Shown: one piece after another, positions 7,901-64,000 of the stretch
How positions within the stretch are numbered: position 1 is the first letter of the stretch
Layout: each line of letters begins with the position of its first letter
From: Chiloscyllium plagiosum
Taxonomy: Eukaryota
Direction of reading: 5' to 3'
DNA: 64,000 bases
Assembly (NCBI RefSeq): GCF_004010195.1
Contig: NC_057755.1
Span: 12,694,142-12,758,141 of the forward strand
The notes under the pieces: generated by a model
What the model was told of the DNA's origin: nothing
What the model saw: only the letters and a program-made list of their open reading frames with translations
The model's database searches: none
Position numbers and translations under genes: made by a program

Positions 7901-8191
7901 ACCAATCCACTTCTAAATGCAGTGAGATCTGAACAAAATCCAGAGTGGTTGATAAATGGCAAACAACATTCACACCAAAAAAGTACAGCTAATGACCATC
8001 TCTGATGACACTATCGACACAACTTTTTGTGGGAATCGCCATGACTCACTATCAACATCCTGAGTATTACCATCATCCAAAAACTGAACTGGACTAGCAA
8101 TGTAAATTCAATGGCTTCAGCAAATAATTCACCAGTTGCCTGGCTGAGTGCAGATCCAACAACAATCGAGGTTTGGCACTATCCAGGATGA

Positions 8192-8399
8192 GAGGTGCTG
8201 GAAAAGCACAGCAGCTGAGGCAGCATCCAAGGAGCAGGAAAAATCTATGTTTCGGGCAAAAGCCCTTCCTGATGAAGGGCTTTTGTCCGAAACATCGATT
8301 TTTCCTGCTCCTCGGATGCTGCCTGAACTGCTGCGCTTTTCCAGCACCTCTCTAAATCTAGAATCTGGTTTCCAGCATCTGCAGTCCTTGTTTTTACCT
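8192..8399 (+). mobile_element. Fold-back PLE terminal-repeat insertion with 14-bp TSD
   Basis: TSD actatccaggatga at 8178-8191 and 8400-8413. Inverted arms about 8191-8268 and 8274-8351, centred on CTGATGA (8269-8275). Confidence 0.85.
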
Positions 8400-10798
8400 A
8401 CTATCCAGGATGAAGAATCCCACTTAATTGGCACTACACCCTCAACCGTTTCTTCTTTCTGCACCAGCAATGCTTAGCAGTGGAGTTTTTGCTGTCTACA
8501 AGATGCACTGCAGAAATTCACCAGGCTCCTTATACAGCACCTTCAACCTTCCCAAGATCACTGCCCTCAAGGACAATAGATGCAATGGGAACACCACCAA
8601 TTGTAAGTTCCCTATGAACTATTCACCATCCTGATTTGGAAAGAAGGACTGGATTGGCAAGATTACCTCTTCTGTCCTTTTTTTAAATCTACAAGCCATG
8701 CATGCCCCCTTATTCACAGAAATCAGTTGTTGTATTCTGTACTTTAAATGTGCAGCCATGCAGCTTAATGATATGGTAAGTGTGAGGTTTCAGAATGGGG
8801 GGGGATAGGGGATGGTGGTAGGGAAGTAATGGGTTGAGCCAGATCACATGCTAAAGGTTCCAGATGGAAGCATGAGCCTCAGGTCTAGCCCTGAAGGAAG
8901 GAGTATCAGGTCAGCATCTTGGGGAATGTGTAATTGGGGGTATAGTAACTTGGACAATACTAGGATAATAATGACCCAGGGATTTTGATTATATATTTAA
9001 ATGCCTGATTTCTCAGTAACTGCTTACTTAACTGCATCAGAACTCTCCAAATTCTCTGATTAAAATAGATTCTGGTCAGAGGAATCTTCCAACTTTCTTA
9101 GCAATGTCCTTAGTATTGGAAATTCTACAGTGTCCCATGTGCAGCTCCCATCTGTGCTGCAGAAACAATTATCTGGCCATCAGAAAACCCAGGCTTTTAT
9201 TGCAGTTCCTTTTCTGCCCTGGAGTTCCCTCCCTAACCTACACCGAGTCAACTGCAGCATTTCAAGGAAGCAGCTCACCACCACCTTCTTGAGGGCAATT
9301 AGAGGTGGGTCATAAATAATTGATAATAAGTAATAATAAATAATTCCCCTGCCAGTCATGCCCACATCCTAGGAACGAATAATCAAAAATGTTGTCATTG
9401 AAACCTGTTCTTCAAATTGCTTCCTGTGAAATTGAAGCAAGTGGGTTCATAATGAAAGCTTACACTACAGGATACAGATCCACAGGTTAATTGTAGTTAA
9501 CTTCTGACTGTATAATCAGGTCAGAAGTTTCCAAAGAACTGCCTATCCTATTTGATTTGATTCTTTGATTTGATTTATTGTCACATGTACTTAAGTGGAG
9601 GGGAAAAGTTTAGTTTTGCGAGCAGCACAGGCAGATCATAGCAAAAAAGGACATGTAGATCATAGAGTAAAAGTATGGAATGACTGTAAGAAATGAGAAT
9701 AAGGTCTGCTGTAGAGAGATAGCAAAGAGTTGTCTGGTGTCAGTACTGTCTTGAATGCAATTATTGACCCTCGACCCAGTACAGGAGTAACACTCTGAGA
9801 TTCTGTGAAAGCAACCCCATTACAATTTGCTGAAATTCTTGTCATTGAAGCTTTTATAACAATGGAAATTGCATTGCCAGTTTGGTTCACGCTCTCGAAT
9901 CAGCTGATTGGTCCATGGCAATACAGACATGCCAGTATAGTAATGAGAAATGGAATCTCAGGGAGAAGAAAAAAGTGGATGAGGAAGACTATGGGATGAA
10001 AGATTGAAGGTGAGAGAGGGAGACTGTAGAATTGCACTTTAGCAAATCGCTGCTTTTTAATGATTGGCTCAAAGTTCCTCCCAGTTTCCTGTGGTGGAAG
10101 GTGTGGTATTTTATGAAGTCAACAAAAGTGGGAAACCAAGAGTGGACGTCTGACTTTGGAATGCAAAACTTTGATCTCCTGGTGACAGTTTGAGATAAAG
10201 TCAATGGCATGTTTGCGATGTATCAAGCCTTGCACCAGCATGTGACAGGTTCCTCCTTGAAATAATATGCATACCATGAAAGGTCATTTTTACAGCAGTC
10301 TTGAAGCTGGCAATTTTAAAGCTGAGCTAGACAGATTTTTAATCAGTAAGGAAATCAAAAGGTTTTGGGGAAAAGGCAGGAAAGTGGAGTTCAGAAATAT
10401 CATTAGTCATTGTCTTATTGAGTACTTTCTACCATTTAATGTATCAAATGATCTAAATCAGCAGCACATGAAGATCTTATTATACCTGATCCACATTTGT
10501 TTAAAGGTGACATGCACCAAACAGCCTGCTACAGTTGTCTGTGGCTAGTAATTTTCCTTATTGAACGCTGCTGTAGCATATAGTACGGGTGCAGAAGAGT
10601 TGCTATTTGCAAGGAGACTCAGAATCAGCAAAAGTGAGTCAGTGATGACAAATGGATGTACTCTTGATCAATGACCTTTACAATGCATGGAAAAGTGGAC
10701 CTGCTGAGCCTGCAAATTCGGCACGAGACACTAACATGAATATGGATTAGTGGTGCTGGAAGAGCACAGCAGTTCAGGCAGCATCCGAGGAGCAGTAA

Positions 10799-20276: not shown

Positions 20277-20471
20277 AAAGGCAGAGAGCCTGAAGCGTGG
20301 AGAGATAAGCTAGGGGAGGGTGAGGGTGGGGAGAGAGTAGCATAGAGTACAATGGGTGAGTGGGGGAGAAAATGAAGGTGATAGGTCAGGGAGGAGAGGG
20401 TGTATCCACTCCACCCTCTCCTCCCTGACCTATCACCTTCATCTCCTCCCCCACTGACCTATTGTACTCTA

Positions 20472-21623: not shown

Positions 21624-22590
21624 CCTTCTGTCTCTCGGCCAATTCTGGATCCAATTAGCCAAACTTCCTTGGATCCCATGGGCTCTTATTTTTGCTGCCA
21701 GTCTCCTATGTGGGACCTTATCAAAAGCTTTGTTAAAGTCAAAGTAGACAGCATCAAAAGTAATGTCCTCATCTACATACCTGGTCGCCTGTTCAAAACA
21801 TTCAATCAAGTTGGTCAGACACAACCTCTCCTTAACAAAACCACGTTGACTGTTCTTGATTAATCCCTGCCTCTTTAAGTACAAATTTATTCTGTCCTTT
21901 AGAATTACTTCCAATGGTTTACACCACTAAGGTTAGACTGACTGGCTGGTAGTTTCCTGCATTAGAACATGGAACATAGAACAGCACAGCACAGTGTAGG
22001 CCCTTTGGCCCCCAATGTTGTGCCGACTTTTTATCCAACTCTAAGGTCAAACTAACCTACATACCATTCATTTCACTATCATCCATGTGCCTATCCAAGG
22101 GTAGCTTAAATGTCCCTAATGTATCTGACTCTCGTACCACTGCTGGCAGTGCATTCCATGCACCCACCACTCTCTGTATAAAGAACTCTGTGTAAAGACT
22201 CTCTGATGTCTCCCCTAAACCTTTGTCCAATAACATTAAAATTATGTCCCCCGTGATAGCCATTTCCACCCTTGGAAAATGTCTCTGGCTATTTGCTCTA
22301 TCTATGCCTCTCGTCATCATGTCCACTTCTGACAAGTCACCTCTCATCCTTCTTCGCTCCAATGAGAAAAGCCCCAGTTCCCTCAACCTTCCTCCAGTCC
22401 AGGCAGCATCCTGGTAAATCTACTCTGCACCCTCACTAAAGCTTCCACATCCTTCCTATAATGAGATGACCAGAACTGAACACAATATTCCAAATGTGGT
22501 CTAACCACAGCTTTATAGAGTCACAGCAAAACCTCTTGGCTCTTAAACTCAATCACCCTGTTAATGAAAGCCAAAACACTCTTCTCCTTT
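21624..22590 (-). mobile_element. CR1-like LINE fragments (RT segment, then a separate 3' end)
   Basis: DFNKAFDKVPH (ORF 21441..21914); LFSLERRRMRGDL (ORF 22057..22386). Confidence 0.85.
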
Positions 22591-28890: not shown

Positions 28891-29806
28891 ATGCTTCACA
28901 GAAGCACATTAAACCAAAGACTGTCACTGAGTCACAGAGCAATATTAGGTCAGGTGACCAAAAGTTTGGTCAGACATGGAGGTTTGAAGGATAGTGTAAA
29001 AGGGCAATCTAGGGAGGGAATTTCCCAGCATAGGGCAACGGTTGGTTGAGTAATTATAAGAGGGACAAGTGGCCAGAAAATGGATGAGCACAAAATTACA
29101 GCAGGTTATGGAAATAGTGATTAATACTTAAATAAGGAGTAATCACGCCATGGAGTGATTTCAAAACCAGAATCAGCATTTTAAGATCAAACATGGCTAT
29201 CAGACATCACTGTAGATCAGTGAGTACAAGAGGGACAGGGGAATGGGTCTTGCTGCAAATTTGGACACAAGCACCAGAGTTATGTCTGATCTCCGTTTTA
29301 AAGAGGGTAAAATGTATGAGACCAGGCAGGAAAGCATTGAAATAGACAAGAGGTAACAGAGGTATGAATGTGTTTAATTAGCTAAAAGGGGTGAATCTTA
29401 CAGGGGTAGAGTCTTAGAGATGGTACAGTGTGAGCCCAGAAGCTCATTTCATGATCAGATACAACACAAATATTAAAAACAGACTTGCTTAATCTCAGCC
29501 TGTTGCCAATGAGTGAAGTGGACCCAGCAGTCGCTGTTTGCAAAAGCAACCAAAACTATGGCTTCAGTCTTCTTAATATTCAAAAAGAGAAAACCGTTTC
29601 TCAGGAAAAACTTGTCAAGCAAGCAATGTGACAATTTGCCAGGAGTGGAATGGTCAAAAGAGCAGGTGGTGATTTAGACCTGGGTGTTATCATGTTACAT
29701 GTGAAAACTAAAATCGTAGAATCCATAAAGTGCAGATAGAGGCCATTCGGCCCATTGATTCTTCATTGACCCTCCGAAGAGCCTAACCTTGGCACAATCA
29801 ATCCAC

Positions 29807-29930
29807 CTGAAGAAGGGCTTATGCCCAAAACGTCGATTCTCCTGCTCCTTGGATGCTGCCTGACCTGCTGCGCTTTTCCAGCAACACATTTTCAGCTCTG
29901 ATCTCCAGCATCTGCAGCCTTCACTTTCTC
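29807..29930 (+). mobile_element. Solo PLE terminal repeat starting at the hammerhead core, inserted into a decayed SINE
   Basis: Direct repeat cacaatcaatccacct at 29793-29808 and 29931-29946; CTGAAGA at 29807; GAAA mutated to AAAA. Confidence 0.85.
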
Positions 29931-30387
29931 CACAATCAATCCACCTAACTTGTACAGGGACAAAGTGTAAACTCCACACAGTCACCCAAGGCTAGAATCA
30001 AACCCAGGTCCCCGGCACTGTGAGGCAGCAGTAATAACTACTCTTCCACCATTTGGATCTTGTTTTTAGATGATGATGCTAAGGAGCAGCATGTGGATGA
30101 GAAACAGGAAGACAGCTGAGGATTGATGTTCAGGGGACACCAGGCTAACAATGTGAGAACAAAAAGAGAAGACATTGCAAGTGATTCCCTGACTCTTTTT
30201 AAAGAAGTAATAGAAGTGGATGAGCGCAGTACCATCCAACTGGATAACTGTGGCGAGGTGTTGGAACAGGTTTGCAAACAGATCAGGAAGGATGTGGTCA
30301 GAAAGTCACCACAGATGTCATTTGTGGCTTTTACAAGAACAATTTTAGTATTGTGGCTGGATAGAATGCTGCTTGGAGTGATTTAAA

Positions 30388-30687
30388 CATGGCTCAGTGG
30401 TTAGCACTGCTGCCTCACAGCACCAGAGACCCGGGTTCAATTCCCGCCTCAGGCAACTGTCTGTGTGGAGTTTGCACATTCTCCTCGTGTCTGTGTGGGT
30501 TTTCTCCGGGTGCACCAGTTTCCTCCCACAGTCCAAAAATGTGGTTAGGTGGATTGGCCACACTAAATTGCCCATAGTGTTAGGTGAAGGGGTAAATGTA
30601 GGGGAATAGGTCTGGGTAGGTTGCTCTTCGGTGTGGACTTGTTGGGCCGAAGGGTCTGTTTCCACACTGTAAGTAATCTAATCTAAT
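30388..30687 (+). mobile_element. HE1/V-SINE-like SINE
   Basis: tggctcagtggttagc (A box), gggttcaattccc (B box), V-domain and tail. Confidence 0.9.
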
Positions 30688-30769: not shown

Positions 30770-32610
30770 ACCACCATCCTTTGCCTGGCCAAACTCGTCT
30801 TCACTTTGATAAACTTCTCCTTTAACTCCTCCACTTCCTTCAGGTCAAAGGGGTAGCCATTGGTATTCCTCATGGGCCCCAGTTATGCCTGTCTCTTTGT
30901 GGGATATATGAAACATTCCTTGTTCTAGTCCTACTCTGGCCCCCACTCTTTTTCCATCAATGACATCATCAGTACTGCTTCCCTTTCTTCTGAAGTGGAA
31001 ACATTTATCAATTTTGTTTCCAAATTCCGCTCTGCTTTCACCTTCATCTGGTCTACCTCTGACCCCTCTCTTCCCTTTCTCAACATCTCTGTTTCCATTT
31101 CTAGGGATAGGCCACCAATTCCACTACAAACCCACTGACTCCCACAGTTACCTAGCTATGAATGCTTACACCCTGTATCCTGTAAAGATCCTATTCCATT
31201 CTCCCAGTTCTTCTGTCTCCATTGCATCTGTTCAGATAATGCCAACTTCAACAAGGGAGCCTCCAATATAACCACCTTCTTCCTCAATTGAGGATTCCCC
31301 AGCACCATTGTCGACAGGGCCTTCAGCTGACTCCGACCCATCTCCTGCACTTCGGCCCTCACCTTATGTTCCCTTATGTTCCCTCTCACAGCAGTGATTG
31401 GGTCCCTTTTTAAAACCACTAGCATCCATACCCGAAGGATCATTATCCTTCCATTATCATTTCCACCACCTCCAGCGAGATGCCAGCACCGGACACATAG
31501 TCCCCACTCCTCCCTTGTCAGCAATCTGCAGGGACTGGTCCCTCTGGAACACCCTGGTCCACTCCTCCTCCACTCCCCATGCCTGCCTACAGCCTCGCAA
31601 TACTTTTCCATGAATTGAATTGAATTGAATTTATTATCATGTGTAGCAAGGCACAGTGAGCAATACAGGCAGATCACATAGTTAAGTAGCATAGATAAGT
31701 AAATAATAGGTAAACAGTGGCTAAGACAAAAGCACAGGTACAGGCGAATGTTAAGAGTTTGAGAGTCCATTCAGTATTCTCATAACAGTTGAGTAGAAAC
31801 TGTAACAAAACCGGCTGATGCGTGTGTTCAGGCTTCTGTACCTTCTCCCTGATGGTAGAGGTTGTAGAAAAACATTGCCAGCAATGGGATGGATCTTTGA
31901 GAAAGAACACAAGGTGTAACACCTGCCCATTTACTTTCTCCCTTCTCACCTCCCAAGGCCCCGGACACACCTTCAAGAGGAAGCCTGCACTTCACTGTAT
32001 TCACTACTCACCATGTGGTCTCCTCTACACTGGGGAGACAAAATGCACACTGGGTGACCGCTTTGCAGAACATCTACATTCTGTCCACAAAACTATCACC
32101 AAATCATCAGTTGCCTGCCACTGTGTTCCCTAGCCAAAATCTCTGTCTCAGGCTTGCTGCAATGCTCCAGTGAAGCTCAGTGCAAGCTGGAAGAAGAGCT
32201 TCTCATTTTCTGCATGGGGATCATGCGGTCATCAGGACTCGAGATCGAATTCAATGATTTTAGGGCCTGAGCATCTTCTCCCATGTCCTTACCCCAACCC
32301 CCACAAACATGAGCTTACACCACAACCATTGGCAGCTACTCATGATCCCCATTAGCTGCTCTTGATACTTCTAGGTTGACTTTTACCCATTCCTTTTTCT
32401 GTCCGACTGTTGATCTGTGTCTCTGGGCTCCATTTCCATCTATTGTTTATTCTTCTCCCCACTTGCCAACCCCAACTTCAGCTTATATACCAATCTTTGC
32501 CAAGCTTTCAGTCAGTTCTGAAGAAGGATCACTGGACTCGAAACATTATCTCTGCTTTCTCTCCACAAACGCTGCCAAACCTGCTGTGATTTCCCAACAA
32601 TTTTAGTTTC
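30770..32610 (+). mobile_element. Degenerate Penelope-like element (second subfamily), interrupted at 31612-31905
   Basis: QVKGVAIG..MGPSYACLFVGY RT motif; CGLLYTGETK...DRFAEHL GIY-YIG motif; terminus with CTGAAGA (32518) and GAAA (32540). Confidence 0.8.
31612..31905 (-). mobile_element. Rex1/Babar-like LINE 3' end (related relic at about 9550-9700)
   Basis: (attca)n tail; frameshifted KDPSH...LPSGRRYRS-type C-terminus. Confidence 0.6.
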
Positions 32611-35338: not shown

Positions 35339-35561
35339 TCAAAGAATGGTCTGAGAAGTGATGAATTTTGCTTTTGCCTCCTCAGTTTCATCATGATTGG
35401 AATCGATGTGGCTAGTTATCATTGTTTCCATCCTGTTTCCAGTGTATGTGCTGCTGCATGTCATTCGGAAGCTCACCACTGTCGTTAACTCCTGTTGATC
35501 GTAGGGACTGACGTGTACAAAGGGGCACCAGCGGAAAGCTCGCTTAAATCCAATGCGGAAT
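35339..35561 (-). CDS. TACR2: Tachykinin receptor terminal coding exon (helix 8 and C-tail)
   Basis: Minus-strand acceptor ...gcccag|A TTC CGC. (R)FRIGFKRAFRWCPFVHVSPYDQQELTTVVSFRMTCSSTYTGNRMETMITSHIDSNHDETEEAKAKFITSQTIL*. Phase joins CG|A from the upstream exon. Confidence 0.9.
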
Positions 35562-36235
35562 CTGGGCAACGACAACATGAAAAATGATACATAATGCATC
35601 GTGGAATTCGACAATGTTGTACACTTTCCAAGATGATTCACACCTACTCTCCTCCAGAGATTGTACACATTCCAGAGACGTGGGGGAAATGTTAAAGTAC
35701 AGAAAGCCACAATCCCAATGGGACCACATGACCCCCACCCCAGTGTAGCTCAGTACCCAACCACCCTCCACAATCTGGTCTGGCAATCCCCCCCGCCTCA
35801 ATTACACTACCCACTTACACATTACTTCCTTTTGGAAACAGCGGATGAGGAATATTGACATAATGATTTGGGAAAGGCAGATAATGTAGAAAACACTCAG
35901 CCACTGCAGTTTCCTCACCTCTATTGCTAAACAGGAACTGAGTGCTATGATTAGACAATAAGACGATGGTGGAAGAGAATCAAGGTGACTGGTCATTCTG
36001 GATCAAGCAATTCTCATTTCCTAACTTCCTGCCTTGTACATGATGTTCCTGTGATTGGAAAATATTCTTGGGAGCCATCACAGAACTGCCTGGTCTCTAT
36101 AATAACCGCTGCTTGTGATATGAAGAGTCTATTTAGTGCTGATTAGTTTAGGAGGAGCACTCCAACCCTGTTCTGATCTGTATCTTAATTTCATCAACTC
36201 TCCTTAGCTCTGCAACGCTTACAGAAGAAAAATCA

Positions 36236-37027
36236 GTCAGAAGTCAGATGATACCCAGTTATAATCCAACAGGTTTATTTGAAATCACAAGCTTTCGGAT
36301 TTTATAGGCAGATCGATCATACAAGTTGTGTGAGTGGAATGTTGACAGGCTGAAATAGTAGGTCTCTGCAGCTGAGCAAGAGTGTCAGATGGTGTGAGTA
36401 AAGTGTCAACAATTGAATATCAAGGAGAGAGTTGACCTATAATCTGAATAAATGAGGCAGAAAGATAATTACATAGACTAAAAATAAGGTGATGCTGGAG
36501 ACTAACCAAATGGCTGGAATAACATAACCAATGTAATAAGTAATCCAAAATTGTCCAAACTAAATAAGATAGAGAGACCATAACAATTTATTGAGGTGGT
36601 GGTGTCAAAACAGGACAGTAAGGAAACTTCACAGATACAAAACAGTGTGATGGGGTCACACGTTGCACAACATAAACTCAAGATCATTGTTGAGGCCATC
36701 TTCATGGGTATGGAATTTGGCTATCAGTTTCTGCTCCGTTTCTGCATTGTTGTATATCTTGAAGGCCGCTTACCAAACTTTACTCACACTGTCTGATAGT
36801 CTTGATCACCTGCAGAGACTTATTATGCAGCCCGTCGACACTCCACTCACACCATTTGCATCTCTCTGCCTATAAATTCTGTGTTCTGTGTGCTTCTCTC
36901 TTACTTCACCTGGCAAAGGGGCCGCACTCCAAAAGCTTGTGATTTTAAATAAACCTGTTGGATTTCAACCTGGTGTCATCTGACTTCTAACCTTGTCCAC
37001 CCCGGTCCAACACCAGCACTTCCACAT
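36236..37027 (-). mobile_element. Penelope-like element (third subfamily) with inverted termini, in the last TACR2 intron
   Basis: Minus-strand EQKLIAKFHTHEDGLN (36689-36736), typical of a PLE endonuclease C-terminus; inverted termini; TSD agaa(g/t)aaaaatca at 36223-36235 and 37028-37040. Confidence 0.75.
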
Positions 37028-38900: not shown

Positions 38901-39202
38901 CTATCTAAAGATAACATCAATCGTTAATTATGACAATCCTGACATGGCTCAGTGACATTTTCTTTAATGATAGTTCGAGTGTTTTGGACAGTTGGCTATA
39001 TTAAAGTCCCGACAAAGTTTTTGTTACTGTTGTTGGTTCTATCAATCTATCTGCCCTTGTCAGCCAGTTTCATGATTATTACTGTGCCTATTGCCCCTCT
39101 CTGTACCCAGCCCCATGGCTGTCCTGTCTCTGTATCTGTATCCACTGCCACCAGCTTCCCCTCTGCCTGCCCATGTACCCACTGTTGGGCTGTTGTGCTC
39201 AC

Positions 39203-39399
39203 CGGTTGTTAAGGCAGCAGTAAATGATGGGGTTGTACATGGTTGAGCTCATGGCTAGCCAGAAAATGCCCAGATACACCTGCTGTATGTAGGTTTCATA
39301 ATAGATGTCCTTCTTGAAACTGGCCAGAATGAAATACAAATGATAGGGCAGCCAGCAAAAGGCAAAGGTCAGAACAACCACAATCATCATTTTCACAAC
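39203..39399 (-). CDS. TACR2: Tachykinin receptor penultimate exon (TM6-TM7), neurokinin-2 receptor-like
   Basis: Acceptor tttcag| and donor |gtgag; 197 bp. [66 protein letters not shown] with CWLP and NPIIY motifs. The YHLYFIL.SF..DIY loop is NK2R-like; HK1 synteny supports TACR2. Confidence 0.9.
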
Positions 39400-39584
39400 C
39401 TGAAACAGAGTAAAGAACATCAGGCAAGCTTTGAAAAGTGATCTTAGAGATGTGTAAGAAGATTTTATCACAGCAAACTTTTAATATTTATTGGGCATAC
39501 CAAACACAGATCATTGAGAACAAAGATCCTGTCTATCAATTTTGTTGAGCTGTTTGATTTACGGATTTGGTGTTTTTATTTTTC

Positions 39585-43262: not shown

Positions 43263-43725
43263 GTAGAACGGTGACTCCGTGGTTAGCACAGCTGCCTCAC
43301 AGCGCCAAGGAGAAAGTGAGGACTGCAGATGCTGGAGATCAGAATCAAGAGTGTGTGGTGCTGGAAAAACACAGCAGGTCATGCAGTATCCAAGGAACAG
43401 GAGATGATAATGAAGGTCTCCAAGGACCTAGGTTTGATTCCAGCCTCAGGCGACTGTCTGTGTAGTTTGCACATTCTCCCCATGTCTGTGTGGGTTTCTT
43501 CCGGGTGCTCTGGTTTCCTCCCACAATCCAAAGATGTGTGGCTTAGATGAATTGGCAATGCTAAATTGCCCACAGTGTGCACGAATGTTTAGGTTAGGAG
43601 CATTAGTCAGTGGTAAATGTACAGTAATAGGATAGAGGAATAGGTCTGGGTGAGTTACTCTCCCAGAGGGTCAGTGTGGACTCGTTGGGCCAAATGGCCT
43701 GTTTCCACACTGTAGGGATTCTATG
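43262..43725 (+). mobile_element. HE1-like SINE with a nested PLE terminal fragment (about 43309-43404, minus strand)
   Basis: SINE head interrupted at ccaagga, which is duplicated at 43305-43311 and 43420-43426. Confidence 0.85.
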
Positions 43726-45790: not shown

Positions 45791-46829
45791 CCGCATGCCT
45801 TTGGAGCTTAAAACTGGGAAAAAATCTAACTCAGTCAGATATGTTGCTCAGCAACGTTTGGGAAAAGTTCCTGAGGTGCTGCCTCTCACTGAGGTGATGG
45901 TTTCTGAAGATGCTGCCTCTCACTTGGATACAGTTCCTGAAAGTGCTGATTCTCGCTAGGGGAGCAGTTCTTGAAGGTGGTCACTCAAACTGTTGGGCAA
46001 AGAGAAAGGGAGACAACTCCTACTCACTCCACTGCTCACTATTTTCTGTTTGTTTAAGCGGCTTGCCAAAATGCTGCCACACTCCTTCATATATCGTGTG
46101 TCTTCATTTTGTTGAAAAGATCCTGCATGGCACCTTACCTCAAATCTTTTCTTTTGACGAAACATACATGTCCTCTAGTATCTGCAAACCTCATTAATCA
46201 TCTGCACAAAGCTTTAACTGGCCCTTTATTGAACTTTGTATTTTGTTCTTCATGTTTATGAATTATTTTCTTTTTATGTTTGTCATCAGTCTTTCTCCAA
46301 GCAATGAGCAGGTGATTCTGCTGCTTAATACTGCTGCATTATTCAGTAAGATCACAGCAGATCTAATCGTAACCTCAAATCCACATTCCCACTGACCGCC
46401 AATAACCTTTTACCATCTTGATTAACAAGTGTCTACCCACTTCTGCCTTAAAATATTCAAGGACTCTGCTTTACAGGAAGAGAGTTCCAAAAACTGAACC
46501 TTCAAAAAAAATTTACTTCATATTTAATTGAAATAAATGACCCCTAATGTTTAACAGTGAGCTCTAGTTCTAGATTCTCCCATAAGAGAAAACATTATCT
46601 CCACATCCAACCTGTCAAGACCCCTTAATACCTCGTGTGTTTTCAATCAAGCTGCCTGTTATGAATATCAACAAATACAAACATAGCTTGTCCAACCTTT
46701 ATTCCTGAAACTGTTAGTCTGGTTTGCAGATACTAGAGGACATGCATGTTTCTTCAAAACCAATTCTCTGAATTGCTTCCGACACACTTAATCTTTTTGT
46801 AGTCTGCTTATGTCCTCTTCACAACGTAG

Positions 46830-48983: not shown

Positions 48984-50240
48984 AATTTTACAAGGGGAGT
49001 CTAAAACGGGTCTTAGGCATCTTACGTACATCTGTTACAGACAGTTATTTAATGTTTAGCAAGTCGCCTTATCCACTCTGAAGTCAGGTTTGGGATAGGT
49101 GTTGCGTTGATTCCAGAAATTGGTATATTTTGCACCCATTTTTCATCTCCTATTAGTTCAATGTTTAAACTTTGTGACTCTCAGGAATTGGTGAACTTTA
49201 CTCCCTTATTGATCAATATCTACTGGTGGTGGAGCAAGTTTTCCCAATCAGGCAGCCCATGGAGGTAAGGCATCAATTACAAAGAGACGTTTATGGAGAC
49301 TGGTAATAGAATGTAATGTATGGGCCCAGAAACAGGAGCTTGCTGGCATTGTCTTGGACACTCCGGCCTCAGATAAAGGGAGATATTAGGTTCCCCACTA
49401 GTAAGGTATGAACAAAACTAAACTGTGGTTCTTGTTTCTCATTGCTATCTCAGGATCTTGCTTCAGAGAGATCTGTGGGATTCCGATGAGATTTGGATCC
49501 CTTTGACTTTAGAACTGTAACATCTTCAGCACTGAAACTGTCCAGTTGACTTAACGGTTCTCTGCAGGTGCGTAAAGTTTATTATTGCAATATCTTACTC
49601 GAATTGCTACTTCACAGGCTATTGTATCTCTCTTTCCTTCTTTTTCATCTGTTCATTGAATACCCCCTTAACCTTTTGTCTGTATTCCTTCATACTTTTT
49701 GATAAGAGTTATCAATCTCAGTTTTAAAATCAACAACTAATCGATCATCAGTTGCCAATGTTCCAAACTTCTATTGGCTTTTGTGTGAAAATAGGGTAGA
49801 AGATAACCGAGTATATTATTTGCTAGACTGTTAATGCAGAAAGGTAGGTAATATTCTGGGGACCTCGGTTTTAATCCTGTCAGTGGAGATGGTGGAATTT
49901 AAATTCAGTAATAATCTGGACATAAGAATGTAGTGAGGTATTTAAACCATTGCTGATTGTTAGAAAACCCATCTGGTTCACCAATATCCTTTAATGATGG
50001 AAATCTACCATTCTAGGAATGACTCCAGACCCACAGCCATCGAAATGCCCTAGCAGGCCATTCAGTCTTAACTGCGCTCTGGGCAATTAGGGATGGGCAA
50101 TAAATGCTGGTCCAACCAGTGACATCCACATCCCATCAATGAATTATTTCTAAACATCCTGCTGGTTCCATATCTTTCCATGATCTGCTTACATATCTGT
50201 CCTCTATCTCCTGTTAGATAATGGGAGGCCCTCATTATAA

Positions 50241-50450
50241 GGAGAAAGTGAGGTCTGCAGATGCTGGAGATCAAAGTTGAAACTTTATTGCTGGAACAGC
50301 ACAGCAGGTCAGGCAGCATCCAGGGAACAGGAGATTCGACGTTTCGGGCACAGGCCTTTCCTGAAGAAGGGCCTGTGCCCGAAACGTCGAATCTCCTGTT
50401 CCCTGGATGCTGCCTGACCTGCTGTGCTGTTCCAGCAATAAAGTTTCAAC
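50241..50450. mobile_element. Fold-back PLE terminal-repeat insertion with perfect 81-bp arms and a 14-bp TSD
   Basis: Arms at 50276-50356 and 50370-50450 are exact reverse complements; TSD ggccctcattataa at 50227-50240 and 50451-50464. Confidence 0.92.
50358..50391 (+). ncRNA. Minimal type-I hammerhead ribozyme motif (intact core)
   Basis: UUC-CUGAAGA-A-GGGC-CUGU-GCCC-GAAA-CGUC^GAA; predicted cleavage after C50388. Confidence 0.75.
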
Positions 50451-50639
50451 GGCCCTCATTATAACCCCATCATAGTGATTACACCATTCTTATTCCTAAA
50501 TTCTACCCATATTGCCTCGCTGGATGAACCATATTTTTTAGACCGCTCTGAGTCCTCCCTTAGTAAAGATGTGACATTCTCCTTAATCAGTTATAAAACT
50601 CCTCCACCCCTTTTACATCCCTTTCTCTCACCTGAAACA

Positions 50640-51964: not shown

Positions 51965-52480
51965 AAACATGAGTCTTTCCACACTGGAACAGATCATCAA
52001 AAAATGAGAGTCATTCTACACTGGAATGGATCATTTAAACCTGAGTCACTGTACACTCGTATAGATCATCAAAACAAGTCATTTTGCACTGGGATACGTC
52101 ACCGAAACATATCACTGTACATTGGAGTAGATCACCCAAGCATGAATCATTCTATACTAGAATAGATCACTGAAACATGAATCAATTAACACTGGGATAA
52201 ATCACTGAAACATGAATTATTCAACAATGGAACAGATCATTGAAAAATATATCATACTACACTGGAATAAATCACCAAAATATTGGCGTTATTTATTCTA
52301 CACTGGAATGGATCACTGAGACGTGTCATTCTACACTGGAAAGATCATTGAAATAGGAATCATTCTATATTGGCATATATAGTTGAAAACTAAGTAATTT
52401 TATACTCAAATACATCACTGAAGCATAAGACATTTTACACTGGAATGGATCATTGAAACATGAATAATTTTATGCAGAGA
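51965..52480 (+). repeat. 35-bp tandem array, block 4
   Basis: Same consensus and orientation as 40165-44015. Confidence 0.9.
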
Positions 52481-52859
52481 GTGATTACCAAATGAACATG
52501 CTCTGTCATTCAATACAATAATTGCTGACTATCTGCTTCAAAGCCTTTTCCCTACACTATCCCGATATGTCTTTATGTCAATGACAGACTTTTAAAGAAC
52601 GATCTCAACAAAAAAAACCCTCAATGATTGAGCTTCCACAACCTGAGAGAATTCCAAAGATTCATTACCTTCTGAGTAAATACTTTTCTCCTCAGTTCAA
52701 TATTCAGTGGTTTCCCCCTTATTTTAAAATTCTACCACCTGGTTCTAGGTTCTCCCCAACCAGTGGTAATATTGTACCTGCATCAACCCTGTTTATCCTT
52801 TTAAATATTTTCTAATGTTCAGTGAGATCATCTCTCATTCTTCAAAACTCCAGTTTATC

Positions 52860-55308: not shown

Positions 55309-55775
55309 ATATCAAAGTTGAAACTTTATTGCTGGAACAGCACAGCAGGTCAGGCAGCATCCAGGGAACAGGAGATTCGACGTTTCGGGCACAGGCCCTT
55401 CTTCAGGAATGAGCAGAGAGTGTTCAGCAGGAGAAGATAAAAGGTAGGGAGGAGGGACTTGGAGGAGGGGCGTTGGAAATGTGATAGGTGGAAAGAGGTC
55501 AAGGTGAGGGTGATAGGTCGGAGTAGGATGGAGGCGGAGAGGTCAAGAAGAAGACTGCAGGTCAGGAGGGCGGTGCCGGGCTGGAGGGATTCGGCTGAGA
55601 CAAGTTGGGGGGAGGGGGGATGAAGAAACTGGTGAGGTCCAAGTTCATCCCCTGTGGTTGGAGGGTTCCCAGTCGGAAGATAAGACGCTCCTCCTCCGAC
55701 CGTCGGGTTGTTGTGGTTTGGCGGTGGATGAGTCCAATGACCTGCATATCCTCGGTGGAGTGGGAGGGGGAGTTG
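55309..55775 (-). mobile_element. Young Penelope-like element 3' end
   Basis: Endonuclease C-terminus MQVIGLIHRQTTTTRRSEEERLIFRLGTLQPQGMNLD (ORF 55562..55747); terminus identical to 50270-50356. Confidence 0.9.
55375..55410 (-). ncRNA. Minimal type-I hammerhead ribozyme motif (best-formed copy)
   Basis: Minus strand AUUC-CUGAAGA-A-GGGC-CUGU-GCCC-GAAA-CGUC^GAAU; 4-bp stem I (AUUC/GAAU). Confidence 0.8.
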
Positions 55776-56190
55776 ACTATCCTTGATCACATTATTCCTA
55801 TCCAGATGTTCATAAATCCTATCCCTTACAATTCTCTCTAAGATTTTGCCCACAACAGAAGTGAGACTCGCTGGCCTATAGTTACTAGGGTTATCCCTAT
55901 TCCCCTTCTTGAACAAGGGAACCACATTTGCTAGCCTCCAATCTTCTGGCACTACTCCTGTAGACAACGAGGACATAAAAATCAAGGCCAATGGCTCTGC
56001 AATCTCCTCCCTTGCTTCCCAGAGAATCCTAGGATAAATGCCATCAGGCCCAGGGGACTTATCTATTTTCACCCTTTCCAGAATTTCCAACACCTCTTCT
56101 CTACATACCTCAAAGCCATCCATTCTACTTAATTGTGACTCAGTACTCACATTGACAACAATGTCCTGTTCCTGATTGAATACTGACGAA
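55776..56190 (-). mobile_element. Young CR1-like LINE ORF2 segment
   Basis: KSPGPDGIYPRIL...VPEDWRLANVVPLFKKG...NYRPASLTSVVGKILE within ORF 55350..56369. Confidence 0.9.
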
Positions 56191-56579
56191 AAGTCAGGGA
56201 ACATCCCCACTTCTGACCTTATGATGGGCAGAAGATCAGTGATGAAGCAACTGAAAATGTTTGGGCCGAGGACACTATCCTGAGGATCTCCTGCAGACAT
56301 GTCCTGGAGCTGACTTGATAAATTTCCAACAACCACAACAATCTTTCTCTGTACCAGGTATGACTCCAATCAGTGGAGAATTTTCCCCACTGACTACAGT
56401 TTTGCTTGGGTCCATTAGTGCTACACTTGGTCAAATATGGCCTTGATGTCAAGGATTATGACTCTCATCTCACCTCTGGAATTCATCTGTTTTGTCCATG
56501 TTTGAACCAAGGCTGCAATGAGGTCAGGAGCTGAGTGGTCCTGGTGGATTCCAAACTGGGCATCACTGAATAGGCCATC

Positions 56580-58454: not shown

Positions 58455-60745
58455 CAACTCTCCAGTCCCCAACACCTCATCTTCATCATGGACATCCAGT
58501 CTCTCTACATCTGCATCCCCCACGAGGAGGGCATAAAATCCCTCCACTTCTTTGTCTCCCACAGACTCAACCAGTCCCCCTCCACTGATACTCTCACTTG
58601 ATTAGCGGAGCTAGTCCTCACCCTTAATAACATCTCCTTTGAATAATCCCACTTCCTACAAACCAGAGGGGTAGCCATGGGTACCTGCATGGGTCCGTGC
58701 TATGCCTGCCTCCTCATAGGATACATGGAACAGTCCTTCTTCCACAGTTACACCGGCACCAACCCCCATCTTTTCCTCTGCTACATTGATGACTGTATTG
58801 GTGCTGCTTCATGCTCCACGAAGTGCTCGAACAGTTCTTCAACGTCACCCGCAACTTCTACCCTGACCTCAAATTCATCTGGATCATCTCTAACACCTCT
58901 CCATCCCCAGCAACCGACTTAGCATCAACATCAATTTCAAACCCACCAACTCCCACAGCTACCTTGACTACACCTCCTCCCATCATCCCTCCTGCAAAAT
59001 ATGCGATCCCATACTCCCAATTCCTCCACCCCCATTGCATCTGTTCCCAGGATGAGGGATTCTACCCCAGATGTCCTTCTTCAAGGACAGTAATTTCCAC
59101 CACCCGCCCCCATGATTAATGATGTCCTCCATTGCATCTCTTCCACCTCCCAGACTTCTGCCAATCCCGCCACTCCTCCACGACCACAACAAGGACAGTG
59201 TCCCCCACTGTCCACCCCACTAATCTACAAATCCAGCACATTACTTGCAGTCTGACCTCAATACCAAAAAGATATTTCCTTCCCCACCCCTATATGCTTT
59301 CCATAGGGACTGTTCCCTCTGTGACTCCCTCATTAGGTCCATACTCCCCACAAACCTCTCCTCCATATCTGGCACCTTCTCCTGCTGCCGTAAGAGATGC
59401 AAATCCTGCTTCCAATGTCCCAAAGAACCATTTCCAAATCCATTAATCTGATTTACAGCATCCGTTGCTGCCAACGTGATCTCCTCTACATTGGATAGTC
59501 CGAGGGCAAGCTCAGGTACCGGTTCAGACAGCATCTATGGTCCGCACGCTCCAATCAACCCCACTGCCCGATTGCCATTCATTTCAACACCCCCTCCCTC
59601 TCCCCAATGACATGAGCATCCTGGGCCTCCTCCATTGTCAAAATGAGGCCACGCGCAAACTGGAGGAAGAACACCGCATCTTCTGCCTCGGGAGCTGACA
59701 ATCTTATGGCCTCAACATAGAATTCACCAGCTTCCAAATCTCCCAAACCCCTACCTCATCCCAGGTCCAGCACTTCCCCTCTGCCCCACCCTTTTTGCCT
59801 GACCTAATCTGTCCATCTTCCTCCCACCTATCTGCTCCACCCTACCCACCGACCAGTGGGCGCTAACCACTGTGCCACCGTGCCGCCCATACAGCGGGGT
59901 CCAGCACTTCCCCTCTGCCCCACCCTTTTTGCCTGACCTAATCTGTCCATCTTCCTCCCACCTATCTGCTCCACCCTACCCACCGACCAGTGGGCTAATG
60001 GTCGGATACTTGGTAGTGTGGATGAGCCTCCATACAGGGATGTGGAGGCACTGGAACGGGTGCAGAGGAGGTTTACCAGGATGTTGCCTGGTATGGAAGG
60101 AAGATCGTATGAGGAAAGACTGAGACACTTGGGGCTGTTTTCATTAGAGAAAAGAAGGTTTAGGGGTGACTTGATTGAGGTGTACAAGATGATTAGGGGG
60201 TTAGATAGGGTTGACAGTGTGAACCTTTTCCCGCGTATGGAGTCGGGTATTACAAGGGGGCATAGCTTTAAATTAAGGGGGGGTAGATATAGGACTGAAG
60301 TTAGGGGTAGGTTCTTCACTCAGCGAGTCGTAAGTTCATGGAATGCCCTGCCAGTAGCAGTGGTGGACTCTCCCTCTTTATGGGCATTTAAGCGGGCATT
60401 GGATAGATATATGGAGGATAGTGGGTTAGTATAGGTTAGGTGGGCTTGGATCGGCGCAACATCGAGGGACAAAGGGCCTGTACTGCGCTGTATTCTTCTA
60501 TGTTCTATGTTCTATGTTCTATGTTCTATGTTCTATGTTCAGTCTCATTAACCTCCTACCTCCATCAACCTAAGACTATCCCACCAACCTTTCCCCTAGC
60601 CCCATCCTCTTTCCTCTACTTATTTCTCAGCCTCCTTCCCCCTTCTCAGTCCTGATGAAGGGTCCTGCCCAAAATGTCAACTCTCCTGCTCTTCTGATGC
60701 AGGTTGACCTGCTGTGCTTAATCCAGTTCCACATTTTATCAACTC
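58455..60745 (+). mobile_element. Penelope-like element interrupted by a LINE/SINE chimera (59858-60540)
   Basis: GVAMGTCMGPCYACL and CYIDD RT motifs; decayed GIY-YIG; terminus with CTGATGA at 60652 (GAAA lost). Confidence 0.85.
59992..60540 (+). mobile_element. Young CR1-like LINE 3' end with a (TTCTATG)n tail
   Basis: ORF 60018..60434 is an intact C-terminus; 6-7 TTCTATG units. Confidence 0.92.
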
Positions 60746-63377: not shown

Positions 63378-64000
63378 GGAGAAAGTGAGGACTGCAGATA
63401 TTGGAGTTCAGAGTCGAAAAGTGTGATGCTGGAAAAGCACAGCCAGTCAGGCAGCATCCGAGGAGCAGGAGAGTCAATATTCTGCACATAAGCTCTTCAT
63501 CAGGAATGAGTTGGGTGAGAGCCAAGGAGCCTGTACTTCCACGCACATCATGTGCTGTGTCCGTTGCTCTCAGTGTGGTCACCTCTATATTGGGGAGACA
63601 GGATGCCAACTTGTGGAACATTTCAGAGAACATCTCTGGGACACACCCACCAAACAACCCCACCGCCCTGTGACCGAACACTTCAATGCCCCCTCCCACC
63701 CCACCAAGAACATGCAAGTTATTGGTCTCCTCCACCACTAAACTCTAACCACCCGACGCATGGAGAAAGAATGCCTCATTTTCTGCCTTGGCAATCACAC
63801 AGGATCAATGTTGATTTCATCAGTTTCCCCATTTTCCCCATGCCTTCACCTTATCCCAGATCCAACCCTCTCTGACCTATCACCATCACCGCCTACCTTC
63901 ACCTACCTATCGCATTCCCAGTTACCTTCCCCCTAACCCCACTCCCCTCCCATTTATCTTTCAGCCCCCTTGGGTACCCCCCTCCCCATTCCTGATGATG
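63378..64000 (+). mobile_element. Penelope-like element: inverted terminal repeat followed by a sense GIY-YIG/3' segment
   Basis: Inverted terminus at 63378-63510; CVRCSQCGHLYIGETGCQLVEHFREHL (ORF 63511..63741); window ends in attcCTGATGA, the start of another hammerhead. Confidence 0.88.

What the first reader, a model, noticed from the sequence alone, without database searches (positions are those of the whole stretch)
50227..50464. 210-bp non-coding fold-back element: perfect 81-bp hairpin with a ribozyme at its axis and a 14-bp TSD
Seen: arms at 50276-50356 and 50370-50450 are exact reverse complements. The 13-nt spacer holds CUGAAGA, and the TSD ggccctcattataa is perfect. The element has no coding sequence, and its arm is identical to the terminus of the PLE at 55311-55397, so it is very recent. 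Inference: either a non-autonomous, MITE-looking element that is actually retro-mobilised by PLE machinery, or a stereotyped inversion product of PLE integration. It sits in the TACR2 intron, so the pre-mRNA would form 81 bp of dsRNA, a potential ADAR or Dicer substrate. Full fold-back would also sequester the ribozyme.
Basis: partly seen in the sequence, partly recalled or inferred. Interest (0 to 1): 0.75.

Follow-up and report, generated by a model that had tools for sequence, protein, structure and literature searches.

The report
Stub hairpin insertion of Penelope retrotransposon
This 210-base hairpin is a real, young insertion made of two head-to-head end pieces of a Penelope-like jumping gene, a miniature of an insertion pattern already described for that class, and most likely a dead by-product rather than a new mobile element.

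Summary
The hairpin and 14-bp TSD are real. A contig of a related organism holds the empty site with one TSD copy, so this is a true, young insertion. It is not a symmetric MITE. It is the 3' end of a Penelope-like element (PLE) with its 35-nt 'tail', joined head-to-head to a tail-less second copy that begins at the 5' edge of the PLE's minimal hammerhead: the published 'inverted pLTR + one-sided tail + TSD' layout, shrunk to 210 bp. Five of 13 PLE-end loci in the window turn head-to-head, three at the same TTC/GAA repeat, including a 208-bp fold-back with its own 14-bp TSD from a diverged family. A shared junction alone therefore cannot prove a mobile family. Corrections: the ribozyme runs from the loop into the right arm, lies on the + strand only, is a dimer-type motif, and is absent from the minus-strand TACR2-like pre-mRNA. 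No genome was held, so the genome-wide junction count was not run and the hairpin centre was not independently bridged. The scan found this pattern before in other windows of this genome. Ordinary; modest mechanistic value.

The parts
50227..50240 (.). Target-site duplication, left copy (14 bp)
   Evidence: single copy at the empty site in organism B (X10 record 14)
50241..50275 (-). PLE 'tail', 35 nt, on this arm only; its end (50241) is the distal 3' end of the element
   Evidence: 210, 320 and 266 contigs of other copies have unrelated flanks before 50240 in X1, X2, X10; tail as defined in PMC8557442, PMC3846280, PMC11167929
50276..50356 (-). Tail-bearing pLTR copy, cut short at hammerhead stem II (lacks the CUGAAGA core); carries AATAAA at 50288-50283 on minus
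50357..50360 (.). Head-to-head junction: one base (T50357) matching neither parent reading, then TTC usable by either arm (TTC/GAA microhomology)
   Evidence: unfolded copy has C (left arm continued) or A (right arm extended) at this place
50358..50450 (+). Inverted, tail-less pLTR copy beginning at the 5' edge of the hammerhead; 93/93 identical to 55409-55317
50358..50392 (+). Minimal type-I hammerhead motif: stem I 5' strand (3 of 4 pairs left), CUGAAGA 50361-67, extra A, stem II GGGC-CUGU-GCCC 50369-80, GAAA 50381-84, CG, UC with presumptive cut after 50388, GAAU
   Evidence: features of min-HHR from PMC4209133; no Rfam match at gathering score; activity not tested
50451..50464 (.). Target-site duplication, right copy
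55311..55775 (-). Longer copy of the same young PLE subfamily (GIY-YIG C-terminal end, 3' UTR, hammerhead, pLTR), its 3' side cut by an N gap; a sibling, not shown to be the donor
8178..8413 (+). Comparison: 208-bp fold-back of a diverged PLE family, own 14-bp TSD, 49-nt one-sided extension, arms 71/77 identical, opposite loop polarity
63378..64000 (.). Comparison: long version of the same layout; tail-bearing inverted pLTR (63378-63510, minus) joined to a plus-strand PLE body that runs off the window

Best explanation
A one-step, probably dead-on-arrival insertion product of an endonuclease-bearing Penelope-like retrotransposon (Neptune/Nematis-type relatives in the window), from a subfamily that expanded recently in this lineage. 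Shown: staggered target cut 14 bp apart (TSD, empty site in a relative); two head-to-head copies of the element's 3' module, one ending at the tail end and one at the tail start; turn at the TTC/GAA repeat that flanks the hammerhead core. Inferred: the PLE protein nicks both strands and primes reverse transcription at the two initiation sites that bound the tail (as PAc does in vitro); both cDNAs are short because they stop at or near the 5' edge of the hammerhead, probably the template's 5' end; their 3' ends are joined through the 3-nt microhomology and filled in. I put two independently primed cDNAs at about 0.5, snap-back of one cDNA with later flipping of the loop at about 0.35, other routes 0.15. 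The hammerhead is a passenger, copied uncleaved, and not functional in the hairpin.
For: Layout matches published PLE insertions: inverted 5'-truncated copy plus a 30-40-bp tail at one end (PMC8557442); inverted pLTR overlapping the direct pLTR, 31-bp tail, 8-10-bp TSDs, palindromes at inverted junctions (PMC3846280). PAc cuts and extends both strands and starts RT at two sites bounding the tail; hammerhead cleavage is not needed for insertion (PMC11167929). Geometry is alike: cut site 25 nt past the start-codon-equivalent position (26 in PAc), arm ends at +87 and +122. Window: 5 of 13 PLE-end loci turn head-to-head (2.4k, 8.3k, 20.4k, 50.4k, 63.5k), 3 at the same TTC/GAA, in families about 77-83% identical, with both polarities and inverted arms from about 9 nt to over 480 nt. 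Relatives carry PLE-type RT (Atlas best clusters 0.96-0.97, HTH_animal 82%, RVT_1; Pfam RVT_1 only E 0.005) and CX-CxxC linker plus CCHH GIY-YIG motifs (definition). Empty site in organism B at about 97% flank identity; subfamily-diagnostic positions 50283-50287 have summed contig depth about 1,000,000 in both A runs against 900-2,400 in B (summed depth is not a copy number). Stem II pairing probability 0.00 in the fold-back against 0.91-0.95 in the unfolded copy.
Against: No genome was held, so the number of identical 210-bp copies is unknown. Some joints that link the tail arm to 50357-50361 at other points have single-contig depths of 89-292 against about 10 for unique flank, which could mean that particular fold-back junctions are multi-copy (sides under 30 letters, only 15 of 536 joints shown, so weak either way). 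One locus (43309-43405) starts about 2 nt past the presumptive cut site, compatible with a cleaved template. The EN/RT motifs come from related families about 70% identical, not from the young subfamily's own full ORF. PAc is a Poseidon-clade element; transfer to this clade is an inference. Loop polarity, on which the two-primer step leans, can be flipped by an assembler or by later recombination and was not bridged by reads.
Confidence: 0.85

Rival explanations
1. An independently mobile, non-autonomous fold-back family: the 210-nt unit is transcribed and re-inserted whole by PLE proteins.
For: Clean ends, perfect arms, long TSD; similar size in a second family (208 bp); PLE proteins can act in trans on sequences framed by pLTRs (PMC3846280); a few fold-back-like joints have depth well above single copy.
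Against: Both arms are 100% identical to an ordinary PLE copy, with no family-specific changes except one base at the turn; same turn in diverged families and variable arm lengths; PAc needs RNA to +172 while RT starts at 111-118, so an inserted stub lacks sequence beyond its own start site (inferred for this clade); RT would have to copy an 81-bp duplex. No second copy of this junction in the window.
Confidence: 0.08
2. The centre (or the loop's orientation) is a short-read assembly artefact; the true insert is a different PLE stub.
For: The assembly has N gaps; the subfamily is very abundant; no listed contig bridges the centre or more than 2 nt of the right junction.
Against: Exact TSD with an empty site in organism B; left junction in two samples of two studies; the 2 right-junction bases match the insert, not the empty allele; an older fold-back with 8% diverged arms has the same design, which an assembler would not invent.
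Confidence: 0.05
3. A DNA-transposon MITE that happens to resemble a PLE end.
For: Short, non-coding, inverted arms, TSD.
Against: The inverted repeat is not terminal (35-nt overhang); arms are PLE pLTR sequence; a 14-bp TSD is longer than those of the usual MITE-mobilising superfamilies (recalled: 2-11 bp); the tail end is shared with hundreds of non-hairpin contigs.
Confidence: 0.02

Closest known systems
Insertion units of EN+ Penelope-like elements: inverted pLTR + one-sided tail + TSD (Arkhipova et al. 2013, PMC3846280; Craig et al. 2021, PMC8557442)
   Same: Head-to-head inverted 5'-truncated copy, 35-nt tail on one arm, variable long TSD, palindromic junction.
   Different: Extreme truncation: no ORF body between the arms, so the whole insert is a 210-bp hairpin; the passages read do not describe this miniature form as such.
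PAc (Poseidon, Anolis) in vitro mechanism (Frangieh et al. 2024, PMC11167929)
   Same: Two ends 35 nt apart bounding the tail; hammerhead copied uncleaved; AT-rich target with ATT in the TSD; similar spacing from hammerhead to ends.
   Different: Relatives here have the CX-CxxC linker (Neptune/Nematis type); the ATG position reads AAG in this subfamily; that paper does not explain inverted arms.
Minimal hammerheads (min-HHR) of metazoan PLEs (Cervera and De la Pena 2014, PMC4209133)
   Same: CUGANGA core, extra base before stem II, G-C closing pair, palindromic 15.2-16.2, no helix III; solo motifs from truncated PLEs, and dual motifs on opposite strands 100-700 bp apart, were reported.
   Different: Here only one of the two arms keeps the core, and stem I has lost one pair at the junction.
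Non-LTR retrozymes (PMC7229834; bioRxiv 10.64898/2026.07.22.740005)
   Same: Small, non-coding, hammerhead-bearing, related to PLE pLTRs.
   Different: Retrozymes are head-to-tail tandem repeats; this is a single head-to-head unit with one core that cannot form in the hairpin.

Membership tests
EN+ PLE insertion unit | Sequence derived from the pLTR/3' end of an RT + GIY-YIG element | tested here: met
   100% identity to 55311-55409, which continues into a GIY-YIG C-terminal frame; 70% to the 19k copy with full EN motifs
EN+ PLE insertion unit | Inverted 5'-truncated copy adjacent to the 5' end | tested here: met
EN+ PLE insertion unit | 30-40-bp tail at one end only | tested here: met
   35 nt, 50241-50275; shared boundary at 50240/50241
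EN+ PLE insertion unit | Target-site duplication with an empty site | tested here: met
   14 bp; empty site in organism B
Neptune/Nematis clade | CX2-5CxxC linker between RT and EN | tested here: inconclusive
   Present in the related 19k copy; the young subfamily's copy does not reach the linker; no tree built
min-HHR of metazoan PLEs | Core, stem II, extra base, palindromic 15.2-16.2, short stem I | tested here: met
   pattern found 4 times in the window, 0 in 100 shuffles
min-HHR of metazoan PLEs | Self-cleavage (as dimer or protein-assisted) | not testable with these tools
   Predicted not to fold in the hairpin; no assay
Non-LTR retrozyme | Head-to-tail tandem monomers each with a type-I hammerhead | tested here: not met
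   Single head-to-head unit, one core
Non-LTR retrozyme | Circular RNA accumulation | not tested
   No suitable RNA data laid
MITE (class II) | Terminal inverted repeats at both ends of the insert | tested here: not met
   Left arm begins 35 nt inside the insert
Independent non-autonomous family | Many copies with the same ends, centre and private mutations at different sites | not testable with these tools
   No genome held; one copy in the window; read-laying tables cannot separate junction types

The most novel reading that the evidence does not exclude
The 210-bp hairpin is one copy of a self-propagating, non-autonomous fold-back family that PLE proteins re-insert as a unit, the hairpin masking its own hammerhead so that the template stays uncut. 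A milder and likelier novel point (about 0.4): loops of both polarities at one TTC/GAA joint record two-ended priming by PLEs, which is not among the mechanisms in the passages read.
Probability: 0.08. Interest if true: 0.6.

Novelty: new member of a known kind. Interest (0 to 1): 0.2.

Why it matters
As a single locus it matters little. As a class, young, unmutated miniature insertions with TSD, tail and junction all within one read are good material for an open question named in PMC8557442 and PMC11167929: how PLEs build their inverted ends. Counting loop polarity, junction bases and arm lengths over many copies would separate two-ended priming from snap-back. The locus is also a usable lineage marker (filled in A, empty in B). 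A perfect 81-bp stem in a probable intron could be edited, but nothing here shows that.

Tried and rejected
Whole genome: none held, so the genome-wide junction search was not run. Rfam: 0 matches in the window at gathering score; minimal hammerheads are evidently not covered at that threshold. Pattern scans for outside copies gave 0 matches: exact junction in metagenome contigs, hammerhead pattern in metagenome, viral and prokaryote genome contigs; these collections are not expected to hold vertebrate DNA, so the blanks say nothing. Sequencing runs: no RNA holder listed. One raw RNA run laid (about 2 in 100 of it read): 1,542 reads, 99% running on into unlike sequence, none on the unique flanks 50150-50224 and 50475-50630; these are other copies, so neither expression nor A-to-I editing of this locus can be read. 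Depth 6.1 against about 10 at the left junction in X1 hinted at heterozygosity, but the contig runs unbroken across the TSD end and no empty-site piece was listed for X1 or X2; not pursued. Upstream TACR exons: none by motif, hydrophobicity or Pfam (0 of 105 frames, frames with N left out). TSD search: 14 nt or more at 3 of 11 loci tried, chance-level 7-mers at 3, none at 5 (for three of these the true ends were not known). Two weak BLAST hits (21624-21651, 32571-32601) were dropped before counting 13 loci. Literature: searches for twin priming with Penelope, palindromic/non-autonomous/head-to-head, shark genomes and foldback listed no paper whose title or abstract start describes miniature fold-back PLE insertions; these listings were not read further, most subscription papers are not in the library, and no supplements were read (those of PMC4209133 and PMC11167929 may show such copies). 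Earlier-finding look-ups by sequence and by nearby place were blank.

Full report
Observation. The TSD (50227-50240, 50451-50464), the 210-bp insert and the perfect 81-bp arms are exactly as described; allowing one mismatch at 50357 the stem is 85 bp with a 5-nt loop. No other perfect hairpin in the window exceeds 31 bp, and both strands fold far better than shuffles. The insert is not symmetric: 35 nt (50241-50275) lie outside the hairpin on the left. Both arms are identical to the PLE copy at 55311-55409 (87 of 87 and 93 of 93 nt), but that copy ends at an N gap, so its terminus is not seen.

It is a real, young insertion. No genome was held. Laying four public runs gave a contig of organism B that joins 50226 to 50451 with 104 and 179 letters on the two sides and about 97% identity: the empty site with one TSD copy. 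Two organism A samples from two studies have contigs across the left junction (22 letters into the insert, short of the tool's 31-letter rule); one contig reaches 2 letters into the right junction; no listed piece bridges the centre (23 records shown, 118,066 pieces not shown). At subfamily-diagnostic positions 50283-50287 the summed contig depth is about 1,000,000 in both A runs and 900-2,400 in B, against about 10 on unique flank; this is no copy number, but it fits a burst in lineage A after the split. Hundreds of contigs leave the sequence at 50240 into unrelated flanks, fixing the tail end.

What it is made of. The 55k sibling runs upstream into a frame ending like a GIY-YIG domain, and is 70% identical over 362 nt to the 19k copy, which shows a CX-CxxC linker and CCHH motif; by the definition in PMC8557442 (passages) that is the Neptune/Nematis type. 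An RT fragment at 20911-21540 matches PLE-like clusters in the Atlas (0.97) and RVT_1 weakly. Read on the minus strand the insert is: inverted tail-less pLTR piece, then direct pLTR piece, then tail. This is the layout described in PMC8557442 (passages) and PMC3846280 (passages): inverted 5'-truncated copy, 30-40-bp tail at one end, TSD, palindromes at the inverted junction. PMC11167929 (parts 1-2 of 4 read) shows that PAc nicks and extends both strands, starts RT at two sites that bound the tail, needs RNA beyond those sites, and does not need hammerhead cleavage.

The ribozyme. Only the core lies in the spacer; stem II, GAAA and the cut site lie in the right arm. It has the features of the minimal, dimer-dependent hammerheads of PLEs (PMC4209133, passages and section 5), for which single motifs showed no cleavage. 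It is complete on + only; the minus strand has no CUGANGA. In the fold-back, stem II has pairing probability 0.00 against 0.91-0.95 in the unfolded copy. The host exons at 39202-39400 and 35339-35749 are on minus, with the substance-K receptor as best match for the first (E 8.8e-31 against 5.7e-28 for the substance-P receptor), so the name TACR2 is likely, not proven. No earlier exon lies in 39.5-64 kb (0 of 105 frames); the intronic position rests on the recalled five-exon plan. A pre-mRNA would carry the hairpin but no ribozyme. Editing or dicing was not observable.

One of a series. Thirteen PLE-end loci lie in the window (two weak hits dropped). Five turn head-to-head: 2.4k (an inverted piece of about 9 nt), 8.3k (208 bp, own 14-bp TSD, 49-nt extension, arms 71 of 77), 20.4k (turn about 135 nt upstream of the core, beside a gap), this one, and 63.5k (tail-bearing inverted pLTR joined to a long body). 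Three turn at the same TTC/GAA repeat around the core, in families about 77-83% identical. Five arms end within 1-7 nt upstream of the core and three within 9 nt past its start; one locus starts about 2 nt past the cut site; four run far upstream and one is unclear. The private base T50357 is the usable marker.

Mechanism. Shown: staggered cut, two arms ending at the two tail boundaries, turn at a microhomology, hammerhead copied uncut. Inferred: short cDNAs run off at the hammerhead's 5' edge, where the unfolded copy has a sequence fitting the recalled initiator consensus YYANWYY (55414-55408; untested). In the 8.3k copy the tail-bearing arm holds the full core; here and at 2.4k the tail-less arm does. 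Snap-back of a tail-primed cDNA gives only the first polarity, whereas two separately primed cDNAs annealing through TTC/GAA give both. But loop orientation can be flipped by assembly or later recombination, and PMC3846280 favours self-priming, so I hold two-ended priming at about even odds.

Against my reading. The family question could not be tested genome-wide; some fold-back-like joints have depths 9-30 times single copy; the clade differs from PAc; the centre was not bridged by reads.

Comparison and novelty. It meets the tested features of an EN+ PLE insertion unit and fails those of MITEs and of tandem non-LTR retrozymes (bioRxiv 10.64898/2026.07.22.740005, passages; PMC7229834, listing only). 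Searches listed no paper devoted to this miniature form, but the layout is in print, and earlier notes of this scan report the same pattern in many other windows of this genome (AI notes, not independent support; the label 'shark' comes from them and was not tested here). Verdict: real, young, ordinary by-product; new member of a known kind; interest 0.2.

Noticed in passing
window 8178-8413: Second fold-back PLE stub (208 bp, 14-bp TSD) of a diverged family, older, opposite loop polarity.
   Followed up: yes
window 29793-29946: Non-inverted 126-bp PLE stub starting at the hammerhead core, 16-bp direct repeat whose last 3 nt overlap the element's first bases.
   Followed up: partly
window 20343-20471: 129-bp imperfect palindrome (31-bp perfect core): a head-to-head turn inside a PLE 3' UTR, next to an N gap.
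   Followed up: partly
window 63378-64000: Classical long inverted PLE insertion: tail-bearing pLTR on minus joined to a plus-strand EN region; other end outside the window.
   Followed up: partly
window 50288-50283 (minus) and 50436-50441 (plus): This subfamily carries AATAAA near the arm ends; on the host gene's strand it is a possible intronic poly(A) signal, though paired in the hairpin.
   Followed up: no
window 43309-43420: PLE stub inserted in a SINE-like repeat, starting about 2 nt past the presumptive hammerhead cut site.
   Followed up: partly
window 51972-52504: Degenerate tandem array with a unit of about 35 nt, at least 12 copies.
   Followed up: no
window 36236-36991, 46152-46759, 29958-30484: Pairs of inverted repeats 500-750 bp apart, possibly MITE-like or oppositely oriented repeats.
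   Followed up: no
window 55776-56200: The 55k PLE piece is joined directly to CR1/L2-type RT coding sequence, giving a chimeric 339-aa open frame on minus.
   Followed up: no
window 60640-60652: In this older copy a pyrimidine run and CAG precede the hammerhead by 2 nt, like a splice acceptor; a D. virilis PLE intron ends at helix I.
   Followed up: no
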